Origin: Octopus vulgaris
Taxonomy: Eukaryota
Length of the DNA stretch: 5,495 nt
Direction: 5' to 3'
Assembly (NCBI GenBank): GCA_951406725.2
Contig: CATOCA020000102.1
Location: forward strand, 1-5,495
Positions 1-5,495 of the stretch are shown piece by piece. The first letter of the stretch is position 1. Each line of letters starts with the position of its first letter. The notes beneath the pieces are model-generated. The model saw only the letters and a program-made list of their open reading frames with translations, ran no database searches and was not told the origin of the DNA. The translations under genes were made by a program, and so were the position numbers.

Positions 1-10
1 ATATGTATAT

Positions 11-31
11 CATCATCATCATCATCATCAT
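11..31. repeat. (CAT)7 trinucleotide repeat
   Basis: Seven consecutive CAT units; reads (ATG)n on the minus strand, probably the tail of the adjacent retroposon fragment. Confidence 0.95.
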
Positions 32-113
32 TTAGCGTCCGTTCTCCATGCTAGCATCGGTTGGACGGTTCAACTGGGGTCTGTGAAGCTGGAAGGCTTC
101 ATCAGGCCCAGTC
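11..113 (-). mobile_element. 5'-truncated retroposon 3' tail (RTE-like LINE or SINE) ending in (ATG)n
   Basis: A ~80-bp unique GC-balanced island between TA tracts. The minus strand reads ...CGTCCAACCGATGCTAGCATGGAGAACGGACGCTAAATGATGATG, with inverted repeat CGTCC(36-40)/GGACG(63-67) and a trinucleotide tail. Family assignment is from recalled resemblance only. Confidence 0.6.
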
Positions 114-122
114 GTATATATG

Positions 123-168
<46 letters not shown>

Positions 169-241
169 TATATATGTATATATATATATGTATATATATA
201 TATATGTATATATATATATGTATATATGTATATATATATAT
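114..241. repeat. (TA)n microsatellite with TG interruptions
   Basis: About 128 bp of TATA/TGTA alternation directly visible. Confidence 0.98.
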
Positions 242-243
242 GA

Positions 244-268
244 TTAAATCCTTAAATCCTTAAAAATC
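244..268 (-). repeat. LINE 3' terminal 8-bp tandem repeat (GGATTTAA)x2 plus a degenerate unit
   Basis: Plus strand TTAAATCC (244-251), TTAAATCC (252-259), TTAAAAATC (260-268). Short tandem-repeat tails instead of poly(A) are typical of CR1/L2 elements. Confidence 0.8.
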
Positions 269-272
269 TTTT

Positions 273-308
273 AGCCCAAAGGCTGCGGCCATGCTGGGGC
301 ACCACCGC
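273..308 (-). promoter_or_regulatory. 3' UTR tandem stem-loops, candidate RT recognition signal
   Basis: The minus-strand RNA folds as GCGGU-G-GUGC-[CCCA]-GCAU-G-GCCGC (285-308) followed directly by AGCC-[UUUG]-GGCU (273-284), just before the repeat tail. Folded by eye only. Confidence 0.6.
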
Positions 309-321
309 TGAATGAGCCACA

Positions 322-3300
322 CTAGTTTGTGAATCCACCTCTGATACGTGGCACTTGATCAACAAGGGAGTTCGATGCTGCTGCCCGCATCCGTGTCTCC
401 TGTCGTGAGGTAGGTTCATCTGGGACTCCCAACAAGAAGAGATCCAGTTTAGTTTTAAAGAAACCCACATCCACACCATGTAAGTCTCTCAGGCATTTAG
501 GGAGGATGTTGAAAAGCTGTGGTCCTCTGAAACCCAAGCTGTTGCAGTATCTGGACCTGTATTTTGATGGTGATGTTGGAATCCTTGGCACCACGCAGCG
601 GCGCCCCGTTCTGCGGTTGGAGTAACTTTGAATGCCAAAGTTTGGGACAAGACCCTCCAGGATTTTCCAGATGTATATTACTGCATATCTCTCCCGCCTC
701 CGCTCCAGGGAGAAGAGGTTTAATACCTTCAGTCTTTCCCAGTAGCTGACATTTTGCATTGAGACGATTTTCTTTGTGTAGCTTCTCTGAGTTGCTTCGA
801 GTTCTGCTGTTTGTTTTATATTGTGTGGTGACCAAAGTTGGGAGCAGTAGTCCAAGCGGCTGAGGACAAATGTTTTCCATAGGACCATCAGTGTCTCCTT
901 CTCTCTTGTTCTGAAAGTTCGGAGAATCCATCCAGCTAGCCGTCTGCATTTTATCACCAGATTAGCAATATGCATTTGGAAAGATGCATCATTGCTCATG
1001 TCAATGCCCAGGTCACGCACTGATTTTGACTCAGGGATTGCAATTCTTCCTGGGCCAGTGTATCCAGTCTTCACGTCATTTACCTTTGTGTGCCAGTAGC
1101 GCAGGGCCTGGAACTTACCTGCATTAAACTGCATGTTGTTGTCCTCAGCCCACCTGTATATTGTGTCCAGCTCATGTTGCAGATGCGCAATATTTTCAGG
1201 GTTCTGTATTGCGTGGGAGACCTTTGTGTCATCTGCATAGCTAGCAAGGGTGGTCATCGTAGCAACTGAAGGCATGTCTGAAAGGGCCACTATGAACATC
1301 AGTGGCCCCAAGACAGTGCCCTGTGGGACACCGCTTGTTATTTGCGTTTCCCTGGAGGTGGCTCCATTGCTCACAACTGCCTGTTTTCTGTCTTTTAGGA
1401 AGTTGTGCAGCCACTCTCCAAGTTTCCCGCCTATGCCGAGACCACGCAGTTTGTGACAGATCATACTATGGTCGACTTTATCAAAGGCTTTTGCAAAGTC
1501 AAGATATATTACATCCACATTTGAGCCATTTAGTAGCTGTTTCAACACCCAGTCATAGTGTTGCAGGAGCTGTGTTAGGCAGCCTCTACCTGGTCGAAAT
1601 CCATGCTGGGTGTCAGACAGCAAGTCATTTTCTTCAAGGAACATGATTAGTTTCTTACGGACTATTCGTTCCATGACTTTGCTGATGTGTGAGGTCAGAG
1701 AGATAGGCCTATAATTTTTAGCATCTGCTCTGCTACCTCCCTTATGGATAGGGCATATTACCCCCTCTTTCAGTTTGACTGGGAGCTTACCACTTGCAAG
1801 AAAGCTCTGAAAAAGAAGCTGTAGCGGTTTTGCAAGGGCTCGTTTGCACGATTTGAGAAGGATCGCTGGGAATCCATCAGGTCCAGCAGCTGAGTTTGTG
1901 TCAATCTCATCAATGGCTAGTGTGATATCATCTTCTTCGATGTTGATGTACTCAATTTTTGTCTCTTTGGCCGCTGGTAAAGTGGCAAAGAATTCTTCTG
2001 GGTTGTTTACTTGCCTGTGTCCTAGAGGTGTAGTGAATACACTTTGGAACTGTTCGTTCAGTATTTCACTTATCCTCGTGGGATTTCCTGTGAGAGAGCC
2101 ATCTTTTTGGAAGAGAGGTCCTATTCTCTGGTGCACTGTGGCTGTCTCTTTGGCAAACTTAAAGAAAGCTTTAGGGTTTGATTTTATATTTTCTATTACC
2201 CAAGCTTCTTTATCTGCTCTCTCCTTTTCATGGGACTGATGTAGACTTTTCTCAGTTTCCATTAGCATTCTTTCGAGCCGAGACTTCTCACCACTTTTGG
2301 TGTGCTTGCTGAGGCGGTTTGCAATCCTTGTCCGTCGTCTCATAAGAATCCTCCTTTCTCTAGGGATCCTGTTTTTATTCTTGTGTGTGCTGGCCCTGCA
2401 CATTGGGACATATTTGTCACATATGGCTTGTATTATGGACATGAAGTGTTTGTGTTTCATGTTTATGTCCGGTGTGGAGAGACATTCAGGCCAATCCTGT
2501 TTGAGGATCTCTTTCTCAATCGACTTCCAGTTGGCTTTATGAAAGTTTAAGTTGGAGAGATGGTGGGTGCTTCGTATAGGCTGTGTGTCTGCGGGGGCTT
2601 TTGTTCCATACGTAGACAGCTCTATTATGTTGTGATCCGAGATCATTGTCGGCATCACATTAACATTATGGATAATATCCATATTGTTTGTAAAGCAGAG
2701 ATCCAGTATATTATCTGCCCTTGTTGGTTGCAGAACTATTTGCTCCATGAAAGAGGTATTTGTGAGATGGAGCAGGGACTCCACCTGTGCCTGCTGATGG
2801 TGTGTCATCCCTGGGAGCATCTGCCCCCCAGGCCATTCCACATTGGGGAGGTTAAAGTCACCCATGAAGAATACACTGTTGTGCTGTTCAAGGTTGGTGA
2901 GGACTTCTCCTATTTTTGTTAGGCAGTCTTCAAACATGCCTGAGTGTTTTGGGGCGTCTGGTGGGCGATATGTAGTGCATATGACGATATTCAGTTGTCT
3001 TATGTGTACAATTTGAGTTTCACATACTGAGTTTGAATATGACAGCAGGACCTGGGGCGTGAGGTCATCTCGGATGTACATTGCAACTCCACCATGGCTC
3101 CTCCCTTTTCTATCTGTGCGTATGACTGCATATTGCGGCATGTGTATTTCTGCATCACCTATATCGGGTTCAAGATGCGTTTCTGTGAGTGCCATGCATA
3201 TAGCTTGATTGCATGTCACAAGGTCTCTCAGGAATGAAATTTTCTTTTTACAGTTTCCGCGCAGCAGCCCTCCTACATTCAGTAGAAATATTTTTGTGGT

Positions 3301-3333
3301 GTGTGTGTTGGTGTTGGTGTCTGTGGTGGCCAT
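322..3333 (-). CDS. ORF2 pol-like protein: APE endonuclease + reverse transcriptase (1003 aa from first ATG; frame open up to 3456)
   Basis: APE motifs in order: LLNVGGL, LTETHL, YRPP, MGDFN, ILDL, SDH (2632-2640). RT motifs: GPDG, YRPISLTS, QHGFRPGR, YLDFAKAFDKVDH, GVPQGTVLGP, YADD (1228-1239), RDLG. CR1-group-like C-terminal motifs LERRRER and FKTKLD. The ORF-track start at 3426 is GTG; the first in-frame ATG is at 3333, just before the APE domain. Confidence 0.96.
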   Translation of the reverse strand: MATTDTNTNTHTTKIFLLNVGGLLRGNCKKKISFLRDLVTCNQAICMALTETHLEPDIGDAEIHMPQYAVIRTDRKGRSHGGVAMYIRDDLTPQVLLSYSNSVCETQIVHIRQLNIVICTTYRPPDAPKHSGMFEDCLTKIGEVLTNLEQHNSVFFMGDFNLPNVEWPGGQMLPGMTHHQQAQVESLLHLTNTSFMEQIVLQPTRADNILDLCFTNNMDIIHNVNVMPTMISDHNIIELSTYGTKAPADTQPIRSTHHLSNLNFHKANWKSIEKEILKQDWPECLSTPDINMKHKHFMSIIQAICDKYVPMCRASTHKNKNRIPRERRILMRRRTRIANRLSKHTKSGEKSRLERMLMETEKSLHQSHEKERADKEAWVIENIKSNPKAFFKFAKETATVHQRIGPLFQKDGSLTGNPTRISEILNEQFQSVFTTPLGHRQVNNPEEFFATLPAAKETKIEYINIEEDDITLAIDEIDTNSAAGPDGFPAILLKSCKRALAKPLQLLFQSFLASGKLPVKLKEGVICPIHKGGSRADAKNYRPISLTSHISKVMERIVRKKLIMFLEENDLLSDTQHGFRPGRGCLTQLLQHYDWVLKQLLNGSNVDVIYLDFAKAFDKVDHSMICHKLRGLGIGGKLGEWLHNFLKDRKQAVVSNGATSRETQITSGVPQGTVLGPLMFIVALSDMPSVATMTTLASYADDTKVSHAIQNPENIAHLQHELDTIYRWAEDNNMQFNAGKFQALRYWHTKVNDVKTGYTGPGRIAIPESKSVRDLGIDMSNDASFQMHIANLVIKCRRLAGWILRTFRTREKETLMVLWKTFVLSRLDYCSQLWSPHNIKQTAELEATQRSYTKKIVSMQNVSYWERLKVLNLFSLERRRERYAVIYIWKILEGLVPNFGIQSYSNRRTGRRCVVPRIPTSPSKYRSRYCNSLGFRGPQLFNILPKCLRDLHGVDVGFFKTKLDLFLLGVPDEPTSRQETRMRAAASNSLVDQVPRIRGGFTN

Positions 3334-3394
3334 CCTGCATCTGTTGGAGGTGGCCTTATGTGGTGGTAGTTCCAGCTTTGTGCTTGTAGCCAGG

Positions 3395-4174
3395 TCAGCT
3401 GCTGAACAATTTTTTGTGCCATGCACAAAAAGACTGCTGTTCAGCTGCCGCCCTTCTCACATCTGGGTGAAGCTGGCCACCTGTTGGGTTTCCGCGCACC
3501 ACATCTGCATACCGTCTTTCAGTAGTGGTCAGTGCGCTTTTTTCCCTTCTTTTAACTTTTTGTTTTTGTTCTCCCTGAGGGAGGGACCTCTGTCTCGCGT
3601 CCGTGCGGTTTTGGTAGGGCCTCCGATGTGCAAAGCGACAGTTTGCACCTTCAACGCCGTACCAGCAGTCCCCCCTCAGGTAGAATTTGCAGGTGTTTCT
3701 TTCCCTGCCCTTACAGTTTTTGCTGGGGTCCCTCTGCTTTCTCTGGACAGGGCTTCCTTTAGCCTTGATTCTGTCACCCTTTACCTCCTGCTTCCCATCA
3801 ATTCCAGGGTGCCTTTCCTTTCTTGCGGCCATCGCACCTCTTTGGTCTTCAGTTGTGGTGTTGGAAGCTGGACATGTGTCATCGTTTCCCTGTGTTCCAG
3901 GCTTCTCCATTTGGCTCTGGATGCTTTCCTCATCCTTTTGGCCCTCCCTGCTGCCGTCACCTCCCAGGATGATGTCCAGGGTGTCCACATGTTGCCTGAT
4001 TAGAGCGTACGAACGGATAACTTCTCTCTTCTTTCGCTCTATCTGGGCGGTGGTTCTCGAAAAATTGTTGCTTTTCAGCGCCGCAGCAATAATTTCGTTC
4101 GGCGAGTCGTCCTCAGCGATCTTCCAAGCGCGGACGAACAATTGCACCTCTCTCGCAGACCAGTTTCTTGCCAT
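3395..4174 (-). CDS. ORF1 nucleic-acid-binding protein (259 aa as read): Myb/SANT-like N-terminus, disordered charged linker, CCCH zinc finger
   Basis: ATG in strong context (AAAATGG) with an in-frame TAG two codons upstream; sits directly 5' of ORF2 on the same strand. Contains CKFYLRGDCWYGVEGANCRFAH (C-x7-C-x8-C-x3-H, 3626-3691). N-terminal WSAREVQLFVRAW...IAAAL...FSRTTAQIERK...Y pattern. The true C-terminus may differ (see findings). Confidence 0.85.
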   Translation of the reverse strand: MARNWSAREVQLFVRAWKIAEDDSPNEIIAAALKSNNFSRTTAQIERKKREVIRSYALIRQHVDTLDIILGGDGSREGQKDEESIQSQMEKPGTQGNDDTCPASNTTTEDQRGAMAARKERHPGIDGKQEVKGDRIKAKGSPVQRKQRDPSKNCKGRERNTCKFYLRGDCWYGVEGANCRFAHRRPYQNRTDARQRSLPQGEQKQKVKRREKSALTTTERRYADVVRGNPTGGQLHPDVRRAAAEQQSFCAWHKKLFSS

Positions 4175-4195
4175 TTTCTTCTAGTGAAATATAGG

Positions 4196-5060
4196 AACAG
4201 AGAGAGAGATAGAGAAGGAGAGATATGGAGAGGGAGAAGAGAAAGGAGAAAAGCCAGGGGGGGATAGAGAGAGAGACGAGGGGATTTTCCTGAGAGAAAG
4301 AGAGAAAGAGAGAAAATAAGAGGGAAAAAAGAGAAAGGTGAGAGAATGGCAGGTCAGCAGGGGGAGAGTGAGCGGGATAGAGGTGTAGTAGAAAGGGACA
4401 GGGTGGAAAAGTGAGACAAGAGGGTGGACCCTAGGGGGGCAGGGAGAAGAAAGGCGGAGAGATAAAATGGAGAGGAAGAGAGAGATGAAATGGAGAGGGA
4501 GAGAGAGAGAGGGCAGGATAGAGGTACCAGGGAGTGAAGTAAAGGGACAGAGAGGGTGGTGTGGAGGAAGGAGACAGAGAGAGGAAAAAAGAGACAGGGG
4601 GGTGGTGAGCCTTAGAGGGAACAGGGAGAGGAAAGGTAGGAAGGAAAAAGGGGGGAAGAGGAAGAGAGGGGGCGCAACAGAGTGTAGTAATGGGACAGGG
4701 AGGGTGGTGTAGAGAAAGAAATAAGGGGACAGAAGGGGAAGAGAAAAAGGGGTTTGACCTGTGAAGGAGCGGAGAGGAAAGAGGCAGAGAGAGGGAGGGG
4801 GAGTAACAGAGAGAGAGAGAGAGAGAGAAAGAGGGCGGTATATAGATACAAGAGAGAATGAGTGAAGTTGAGGAACTGAGAGAGGGGGTGAGGTGAGAGA
4901 AAGTTGATCTGAGAGAGATGCAGAAAGAGAAACGATTGCAGAGGGAGAGAGAGGGAGGAGGGGAGAGTGAGAGCGGAAATAGAGGGTCTGGTGGATGGGG
5001 AGACAGATAAGGTATAAACAGTATGAGAGAGATAGAAATAGAAATGTAAGAAAGAGAGGG
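4196..5060. repeat. Low-complexity polypurine (GA-rich) / polypyrimidine tract including (GA)n runs
   Basis: The plus strand is overwhelmingly G and A across ~860 bp, with a pure (AG)n run near 4808-4828. Confidence 0.92.
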
Positions 5061-5319
5061 AGAGATTATAAAGATAGAATAGCGCGTATTTTTATATCTT
5101 TTTAATTATTATTTTCTGTTTGAAAGAACACTAATGATAACAAATAATAAAAATGTATGAGAGAGATAGAAATAGAAATGTAAAAAAGAGAAAGAGAGAG
5201 TGCGTGGCAGGCACGAAATTATAAAGATTATAAAGATAGAATACCGCGTATTTTTATATTTTTATATCTTTTTTGTTTTTTTAATTATTTTCTGTTTGAA
5301 AGAACACTAATGATAACAA
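5021..5319. repeat. Diverged two-copy tandem duplication (5021-5143 and 5155-5319)
   Basis: Both copies begin GTATGAGAGAGATAGAAATAGAAATGTAA, contain ATTATAAAGATAGAATA(G/C)CGCGTATTTTTATAT and end ATTTTCTGTTTGAAAGAACACTAATGATAACAA. Copy 2 carries extra inserted bases. Confidence 0.92.
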
Positions 5320-5495
5320 GATAAATAATATCTTACCTTACCGGCTGACAGAGAGTACTTACGTGATTCCTTTTTATAAGAAAGGAAGATAGATAGACAA
5401 GACAGACCTTTTATATTCCTCCCCAAGCGCACTTTGTAAATAAAAGGGGTTTGAGTTTCGATTTAGCACATGCAACAGTTTCACGATACTTTCTA

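What the first reader, a model, noticed from the sequence alone, without database searches (positions are those of the whole stretch)
3626..4174. LINE ORF1 pairing a Myb/SANT(trihelix)-like domain with a CCCH zinc finger
Seen: residues 1-56 (4007-4174) read MARNWSAREVQLFVRAW...EIIAAALKSNNFSRTTAQIERKKREVIRSY, and a C-x7-C-x8-C-x3-H motif lies at 3626-3691. Known: W-x3-E-x2-L...W...IA-x2-L...RT-x2-Q-x3-K...Y is the pattern of Myb/SANT-like trihelix DNA-binding domains, as in PIF/Harbinger accessory proteins. CCCH fingers usually bind RNA. CR1/L2 ORF1s are usually described with RRM, PHD, esterase, coiled-coil or CCHC modules, none of which is evident here. Inference: this may be a poorly described ORF1 type combining DNA and RNA binding, possibly tethering the RNP to target DNA, or a domain captured from a DNA transposon or host gene. 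One conserved aromatic of the Myb fold appears replaced (a K-W position reads K-K), so the domain may be divergent. I cannot confirm novelty without a search.
Basis: partly seen in the sequence, partly recalled or inferred. Interest (0 to 1): 0.75.

Follow-up and report, generated by a model that had tools for sequence, protein, structure and literature searches.

The report
Myb-headed, frameshifting octopus LINE
An abundant jumping gene (LINE), likely from an octopus, begins its first protein with a predicted DNA-binding-type Myb fold and an RNA-binding-type zinc finger, where a sister family has a PHD-like finger instead, and a conserved slippery sequence likely lets ribosomes fuse these parts onto its cut-and-copy enzyme, which would give that enzyme a DNA-gripping head.

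Summary
The window is one young copy of a two-ORF, APE-type LINE; its closest named proteins are from Octopus vulgaris. ORF1 starts with a Myb/SANT-like three-helix domain (model pLDDT 89.6; best folds RAD-MYB, SANT, TEAD, GT-1), then a CCCH finger and a C-terminal helix. Four families in the genome, with ORF2s only 36-71% alike, keep this layout; some relatives pass Pfam's cut-off. A fifth family and unnamed outgroup proteins carry a PHD-like finger in the same slot, so CCCH looks ancestral and the Myb domain is the swap. New here: all five families keep a U_UUU_UUR slippery heptamer exactly where ORF2's -1 frame opens, and two have no AUG before the endonuclease. ORF2 is therefore likely made as a Myb-CCCH-APE-RT fusion, recalling R2's zinc-finger-plus-Myb head. 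This copy's U-run is one base short. The window's family sits in (TA)n at 17 of 20 3' ends (background 2.7%, PHD family 7 of 27), but two Myb families are not significantly above the PHD family, so Myb-driven targeting is only suggested. Not found described in ten literature searches; Repbase and Dfam could not be checked.

The parts
243..5495 (-). One copy of LINE family A; the 5' end is cut by the contig end (full-length copies start about 350 nt further upstream)
   Evidence: 98-99.7% identical to 20 other copies, the best over about 5.4 kb; full-length head 1672 nt before the ATG in L058
3395..4174 (-). ORF1 as read in this copy, 259 aa (298 aa, ending near 3279, in most copies)
3962..4174 (-). 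Myb/SANT-like (trihelix-type) domain, aa 1-71, predicted helices 7-19, 25-35, 42-60, 63-71
   Evidence: Pfam; HHalign; model; fold searches; 61% identity and pN/pS 0.31 against family B
3626..3691 (-). CCCH zinc finger C-x7-C-x8-C-x3-H
   Evidence: Pfam over cut-off when isolated; four ligands invariant in 11 of 11 aligned ORF1s
3488..3517 (-). Short conserved RRYADVVR motif
   Evidence: 73% identity, pN/pS 0.19 against family B
3425..3433 (-). Predicted -1 slippery site (U_UUU_UUG in most copies, coding S-F-L); the U-run is one base short in this copy
   Evidence: contigs from four runs guessed to be RNA carry the longer run
3279..3454 (-). ORF1 C-terminal conserved segment (helix inferred from its sequence pattern) and tail, overlapping ORF2's -1 frame; out of frame in this copy
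   Evidence: 94% identity against family B for aa 241-265; alignment
322..3431 (-). ORF2 frame, intact: APE endonuclease (about 3288-2623) and reverse transcriptase (about 1749-1030); in-frame Met at 3330
244..264 (-). 3' tail of short tandem repeats (8-base unit), not poly-A
114..242 (.). Imperfect (TA)n microsatellite, the insertion site

Best explanation
This is a young LINE whose ORF1 protein carries a conserved Myb/SANT-like domain predicted to bind DNA, a CCCH finger that likely binds the element's RNA, and a C-terminal segment inferred to be a helix, and whose ORF2 is likely made by a -1 ribosomal frameshift at a conserved slippery site as a Myb-CCCH-endonuclease-RT fusion. Shown: the domains, their selective conservation in four families, a PHD-like finger in the same slot of a fifth, the heptamer and frame layout in all five, and the (TA)n bias of family A. 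Inferred: most ribosomes make free ORF1p that coats the RNA. A minority slip and make a fusion of about 1,280 residues that lacks the C-terminal helix. Its Myb head would hold the complex on chromosomal DNA, probably AT-rich and with loose specificity, while the endonuclease and tail microhomology pick the nick. The Myb domain would thus replace the PHD finger as genome tether. My odds by step: architecture real 0.95, frameshift 0.75, Myb binds target DNA 0.55, Myb gives sequence-specific TA targeting 0.2.
For: Fold and homology. Selection: pN/pS 0.31 (Myb), 0.37 (CCCH), 0.05 (C-helix) against 0.58-0.81 in the linkers. Helix 3 is basic, with R40 and K48 nearly invariant in 29 sequences. PHD in the same slot: family E and 4 of 8 outgroup-type proteins scanned, all under Pfam's cut-off. 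Frameshift: intact heptamer in A 18 of 20, B 11 of 12, C 5 of 6, D 4 of 9, E 10 of 10 copies. In copies with the intact run the -1 frame has a stop 1-4 codons before it and, in undamaged copies of every family, runs over 1,000 codons after it. First Met is at codon 200 (D, 2 of the 3 copies with an open frame; 80 in the third) and 142 (E), after the endonuclease start at 59 and 73. Chance of that codon choice is 0.010-0.021 per family, and 0 of 29 xFL tripeptides in the five ORF2s are so coded. 45 of 120 database ORF2 relatives start well inside the endonuclease. Sites: A 17 of 20 3' and 16 of 19 5' junctions in (TA)n, against E 7 of 27 and 2 of 19. [quoted passage not shown]
Against: No binding or translation data. 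The window's own Myb score is under Pfam's cut-off, no fold hit reached E<=0.001 or Z 8, and TEAD and homeodomains tie with Myb/SANT. The third tryptophan is lost and the net charge is only about +3. Families A, B and C have an in-frame Met 25-38 codons after the slip site (earlier in some B copies), before the endonuclease, so they could initiate separately. No shared stimulatory structure: a hairpin just behind the site only in D, one that includes the site in A/B, none in C/E, and no 3'-end pairing better than controls. TA bias is not Myb-specific: E (26%) and an unrelated repeat (7 of 29, 24%) are also about tenfold over background, and Myb families B (13 of 30) and C (12 of 29) do not differ from E (p 0.27 each). 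The chance estimate is post hoc and the families are related. Database ORF starts can reflect gene callers or cut contigs.
Confidence: 0.55

Rival explanations
1. The domain is a SANT-type protein or histone-tail binder: a like-for-like replacement of the PHD chromatin reader, not a DNA binder. The frameshift may still hold.
For: It sits in the PHD slot. SANT domains (DNAJC2, BAF, MiDAC) are among the top folds. Net charge is modest. TA bias varies from 41% to 88% among Myb families.
Against: Basic, conserved helix 3. The other top folds are DNA binders (RAD MYB, TEAD4, GT-1, Zeste). The Pfam family is Myb_DNA-bind_4. That histone-binding SANT domains tend to be acidic is recalled, not from a call.
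Confidence: 0.18
2. ORF1p and ORF2p are separate proteins. ORF2 starts at its own AUG or at a non-AUG codon by reinitiation, and the Myb-like domain acts only in free ORF1p, as an RNA-chaperone or structural module.
For: In-frame Met before the endonuclease in A, B and C. AUG-independent ORF2 initiation is described for mammalian L1 (PMC5009743 passage). No common stimulator was found.
Against: It does not explain the heptamer kept in five families, the -1 frame opening 1-4 codons before it, or the missing AUG in D and E.
Confidence: 0.15
3. The Myb domain binds the element's own DNA (long 5' UTR or promoter, or new cDNA) to regulate transcription or finish integration, as PIF/Harbinger Myb proteins bind their element's ends (recalled).
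For: A 1.67-kb 5' UTR with a defined head; same Pfam family as the Harbinger accessory proteins (recalled).
Against: The 5' heads of A and B differ although their Myb domains are 61% identical. No shared site was looked for systematically.
Confidence: 0.1
4. Chance resemblance, or a one-off decayed capture.
For: Sub-cut-off Pfam score in the window copy; no sequence hit to a solved Myb domain.
Against: Four families, purifying selection, a confident fold and over-cut-off relatives.
Confidence: 0.02

Closest known systems
PHD-type ORF1s of CR1/L2-lineage LINEs (types IIIA/IIIB/V; Metcalfe & Casane 2014, PMC4120745, parts 1-3 of 6 read and supplements searched)
   Same: Modular ORF1 with a small N-terminal reader domain proposed to help general genome targeting; domain shuffling between lineages; family E here has a PHD-like finger
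   Different: No Myb, SANT or CCCH term in that text and no Myb or CCCH in its supplements; here a Myb-like domain fills the slot and CCCH fingers stand in place of RRM/CCHC
R2 (RLE-type) N-terminal zinc finger plus Myb head (PMC11204384, abstract and section 9)
   Same: Zinc finger and Myb domain N-terminal to the RT in one polypeptide, if the frameshift is real; R2 chains appear low in the fold lists (Z 4.8)
   Different: APE endonuclease before the RT; two ORFs; a CCCH finger after the Myb domain rather than fingers before it; loose (TA)n bias, not one rDNA site; a different Pfam Myb family
Retroviral gag-pol -1 frameshift (HIV U_UUU_UUA; PMC5009743 passages); Dictyostelium TRE5-A (named in earlier scan notes and recalled, not read here)
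   Same: Same heptamer class, overlap and -1 frame
   Different: No conserved downstream stimulator found; a non-LTR element; untested
PIF/Harbinger Myb/SANT accessory protein and GT-1/Zeste trihelix factors
   Same: Myb_DNA-bind_4 match; long third helix; GT-1 Z 6.9, Zeste Z 6.1
   Different: Part of a retroelement ORF1; third Trp lost; extra fourth helix; no close donor among the five best non-LINE loci

Membership tests
CR1-group LINE | ORF2 with N-terminal APE endonuclease and RT | tested here: met
CR1-group LINE | 3' end of short tandem repeats rather than poly-A, with 5' truncation | tested here: met
   poly-A is said to be unique to Zenon in this group (PMC13343379 passage)
CR1-group LINE | RT groups with named CR1 reference elements | not testable with these tools
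   No named reference set on hand; nearly all of the 120 ORF2 relatives are unnamed. The CR1 label rests on recalled motifs and on 169 CR1 families reported for O. vulgaris (PMC13282606 supplement)
Zenon | No ORF1 and a poly-A tail | tested here: not met
   ORF1 present, 8-base repeat tail; definition
ORF1 types I-IV (Khazina/Weichenrieder; Metcalfe/Casane) | RRM+CCHC, Tnp22, PHD or esterase domain | tested here: not met
   None at E<=5 in Pfam; the segments between the modules are about 20% conserved, leaving little room for a hidden RRM
Myb_DNA-bind_4 (Myb/SANT-like, PF13837) | Score over the curated cut-off of 27 bits | tested here: inconclusive
   Window 22.3; relatives 29.8 and 29.3; genomic matches to 42.9
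Myb_DNA-bind_4 (Myb/SANT-like, PF13837) | Three-helix bundle with helix-turn-helix and long third helix | tested here: met
   pLDDT 89.6; RAD MYB Z 7.6, rmsd 2.5 over 58 residues; TEAD and GT-1 tied within 1 Z
Myb_DNA-bind_4 (Myb/SANT-like, PF13837) | Three spaced aromatic core residues | tested here: not met
   W5 and W17 kept; the third position is K/R in A/B and aliphatic or T in C/D; two host loci also lack it
Myb_DNA-bind_4 (Myb/SANT-like, PF13837) | Binds DNA | not testable with these tools
   Needs EMSA or SELEX
CCCH zinc finger | C-x-C-x-C-x3-H ligands with aromatic residues; Pfam cut-off | tested here: met
Programmed -1 ribosomal frameshift | X_XXY_YYZ heptamer in phase, with the -1 frame open downstream | tested here: met
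   (five families); damaged in the window copy
Programmed -1 ribosomal frameshift | Downstream stimulatory structure | tested here: inconclusive
   Hairpin behind the site in D only (z -2.75); none shared; pseudoknots not modelled
Programmed -1 ribosomal frameshift | Fusion product detected | not testable with these tools
   Needs a reporter, ribosome profiling or mass spectrometry
R2-type site-specific elements | Single ORF with C-terminal restriction-like endonuclease and a fixed target | tested here: not met
   APE type, two ORFs, variable sites

The most novel reading that the evidence does not exclude
A lineage of APE-type LINEs uses a gag-pol-style -1 frameshift to bolt its ORF1 reader domain onto the endonuclease-RT, making the N-terminal slot a swappable targeting head. 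Octopus families swapped a PHD finger for a Myb domain and so converged on the R2 architecture, steering insertion into (TA)n microsatellites.
Probability: 0.25. Interest if true: 0.85.

Novelty: new variant of a known kind. Interest (0 to 1): 0.64.

Why it matters
It adds an ORF1 type (Myb/SANT-like plus CCCH, with a PHD-plus-CCCH sister type) not found in the classifications I could read. It gives a concrete, testable answer to how ORF2 is translated in this lineage. If the fusion is real, ORF1 reader domains travel on the same chain as the endonuclease, which offers a mechanism for the untested idea that PHD-type ORF1 domains guide integration. A natural PHD/Myb pair in one genome makes that testable by domain swap. 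The family is very young and abundant (149 matches listed, 3006 candidates), so it is likely still shaping this genome.

Tried and rejected
First model from 14 close sequences: pLDDT 66, fold searches uninformative; superseded by the 29-sequence model. Sequence searches of PDB found no Myb domain, only coiled-coil noise. Homotrimer prediction of the C-terminal helix: no verdict. ESM Atlas gave no answer. Metagenome and viral scans gave one distant locus and none, so ORF1-ORF2 linkage outside G000 was not seen. A word search with family C ORF1 found one relative. A DNA search for family D 3' ends returned nothing, so D rests on 8 ORF1-selected copies. No RNA holder is listed on record; the runs laid are only guessed to be RNA. 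A 5' UTR intron ending just before the ATG was considered: contigs cross the site unspliced, no matching joint was listed, and older copies lack the AG; left open. Pairing of the 3' end behind the slip site: not better than controls (the family E window was misplaced and was redone in 131). Single against double origin of the Myb domain: A/B and C/D are not joined in the free ORF2 tree, but their union is not rejected (p-AU 0.475, 33 of 129 rows, LG+G4). Their Myb domains are closer to each other than to host loci, so one capture is simplest; ORF1 exchange between lineages is not excluded. Strict Myb-dependent TA targeting: rejected as stated. Proto2, RTE and Zenon labels were considered; only Zenon could be tested.

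Full report
1. What the window is. Positions 243-5495 are one minus-strand copy of a two-ORF LINE: ORF1 at 4174-3395 and an intact APE-RT ORF2 ending at 322. The closest named proteins are Octopus vulgaris predictions, so the host is likely an octopus. The family (A) is young and abundant: 149 matches listed from 3006 candidates, and 20 fetched copies are 98-99.7% identical to the window. Full-length copies begin 1672 nt before the ATG and end in an 8-base tandem tail. An Argonauta hians ORF2 (58% identical) groups with A and B at full support; its ORF1 was not seen.

2. The observation. The CCCH finger passes Pfam's cut-off when isolated; the Myb-like segment hits only PF13837, under the cut-off. 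A second family, B (ORF2 70-71% identical), keeps the Myb segment at 61%, the finger at 69% and a C-terminal segment at 94%, while the linkers fall to about 20%; pN/pS is 0.31, 0.37 and 0.05 against 0.58-0.81. A genome search with PF13837 brought up two more LINE families, C and D (ORF2 36-39% identical to A and B), whose ORF1 starts with the same domain, followed by two to four CCCH-type fingers and a similar C-terminal segment. HHalign joins A/B to C at 96.7% and the LINE domains to five non-LINE loci at 96.0%. A model from 29 LINE-type sequences has pLDDT 89.6. Foldseek ranks TEAD4, RAD MYB, the DNAJC2 SANT domain and GT-1 highest (probability 0.77-0.99, no E<=0.001). VIA gives Z 7.6-6.9 for the same set. 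The homeodomain-like three-helix fold is secure; Myb/SANT in particular rests on the Pfam and profile matches.

3. Origin. The profile search of 1.84 billion proteins gave 113 hits. Among those I read were further Myb-CCCH-helix ORF1s and a set with a cysteine-rich N-terminus, three CCCH fingers and an xFL helix; 4 of 8 of the latter match PHD below cut-off. Searching the genome with one of them found family E, whose ORF1 has a PHD-like finger (E 0.015-0.039), three CCCH fingers and the same SFL segment, upstream of an ORF2 41-43% identical to A and B. So CCCH plus helix is the common core and the N-terminal slot varies. That PHD came first is inferred from its wider spread in unnamed records and from PMC4120745; no rooted test was made. 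The A/B profile scores C at 39-45 bits, D at 22.6 and five non-LINE loci at 8.5 or less, which favours one capture with no donor identified. The ORF2 tree leaves A/B, C/D and E in a polytomy and does not reject joining A/B with C/D (p-AU 0.475).

4. The junction. The S-F-L that opens the C-terminal segment is coded as U_UUU_UUG in A and B and U_UUU_UUA in C, D and E. Intact heptamers: A 18 of 20, B 11 of 12, C 5 of 6, D 4 of 9, E 10 of 10 (some C and D copies were picked for their odd ORF lengths). ORF2 is in the -1 frame, which has a stop 1-4 codons before the heptamer and runs 1,027-1,068 codons after it in undamaged copies of each family. In E, and in D, the first Met lies inside the endonuclease. 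From each family's ORF2 codon use, this codon choice has a chance of 0.010-0.021; over three deep lineages that is about 4e-6 (my multiplication; post hoc). None of 29 other xFL tripeptides is coded so. Of 120 database ORF2 relatives, 45 start well inside the endonuclease, 18 at its first strand, 39 upstream and 18 could not be classed. Against: A, B and C have a usable Met, and no shared stimulator was found. The window's U-run is one base short, which cuts ORF1 to 259 aa; 5 of 28 anchored loci share this. It may be a real variant or a homopolymer error. Contigs of four runs guessed to be RNA carry the longer run. The predicted fusion in A is about 1,280 residues.

5. Insertion sites. Scoring 20 bases past the tail as at least 70% TA/AT steps: A 17 of 20 (3'-selected) and 15 of 19 (ORF1-selected), D 7 of 8, B 13 of 30, C 12 of 29, E 7 of 27, an unrelated repeat 7 of 29, background 2.7% of 199,600 positions in 20 fixed stretches (3 E, 1 C and 1 A loci lacked the anchor, and the window's own control copy was left out). 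At 5' junctions, where one fell inside the fetched DNA: A 16 of 19, B 9 of 20, C 4 of 15, E 2 of 19. A and D differ from E (p 9e-5 and 0.003); B and C do not (p 0.27). All four Myb families rank above both non-Myb sets, which chance gives 1 time in 15 (by hand). (TA)n is a general hot spot here, and endonuclease preference or tail microhomology could explain the rest.

6. Mechanism. Free ORF1p likely binds the RNA through the CCCH finger and basic linkers (from what CCCH fingers are known to do). A fraction of ribosomes likely slip and make Myb-CCCH-APE-RT, which loses the C-terminal helix. The Myb head, with its basic third helix, would tether the enzyme to DNA, as R2's Myb does (PMC11204384 section 9) but with loose specificity. 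Rivals are a SANT-type histone reader, separate ORF2 initiation, and binding to the element's own DNA.

7. Novelty. Ten searches found no report of a Myb- or CCCH-bearing ORF1 or of this frameshift in such elements. Term searches found no Myb or CCCH in PMC4120745 (parts 1-3 of 6 read; supplements searched), PMC5203782 (passages; it reports a bacterial-type HTH_1 ORF1 in an alga) or PMC13343379 (passages). PMC9115989 (passages; a single-ORF RTE element) has no Myb, and PMC13282606 (parts 1-2 of 3 read) shows neither term in its supplement; it counts CR1 families without describing ORF1. PMC10294476 and PMC13708176 were seen as passages, PMC5009743 as passages of the two-thirds held. Repbase, Dfam and subscription journals were not searchable, and I recall from memory a Myb-like domain in TRAS ORF2 and tandem CCCH fingers in crustacean LINE proteins, so parts may be on record. 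Earlier notes of this scan propose -1 frameshifting in CR1-type LINEs of other genomes; they are unchecked leads, and one of them was seen before I examined the junction. Verdict: a real new variant of a known kind, with a testable mechanism; interest 0.64.

Noticed in passing
L058 oriented 1829 (G000:C35) and L033 oriented about 507 (G000:C5): Full-length family A copies begin with a YY1-like motif and a family B copy with an ETS-like motif right after the (TA)n flank (motif names recalled), suggesting different internal promoters.
   Followed up: no
window 4181-4300 and 5335-5370 (minus strand): A pyrimidine tract and AG six bases before the ORF1 ATG, with donor-like sites about 1.15 kb upstream, look like a 5' UTR intron. 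Contigs cross it unspliced; one contig of run X9 stops matching at 4182.
   Followed up: partly
window 9-113: A separate repeat with a (GAT)n tail, at least 40 copies; used as a control for TA flanks.
   Followed up: partly
L109, L110, L111: Copies of families D and C whose U-run is shorter read ORF1 and ORF2 as one open frame (1,417-1,468 codons); whether these are real or homopolymer errors is unknown.
   Followed up: partly
L135, L141, L143 (family E ORF1 aa 1-100); P0197: A helical-looking region of about 90 aa precedes the PHD-like finger in family E and in an outgroup protein, with no Pfam match.
   Followed up: no
L057, L063, L069, L103, L118: Copies of different families of this lineage lie within a few kb of each other, often sharing one (TA)n tract.
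   Followed up: no
L033 oriented 1234-1942: The family B 5' UTR holds an array of imperfect tandem repeats.
   Followed up: no
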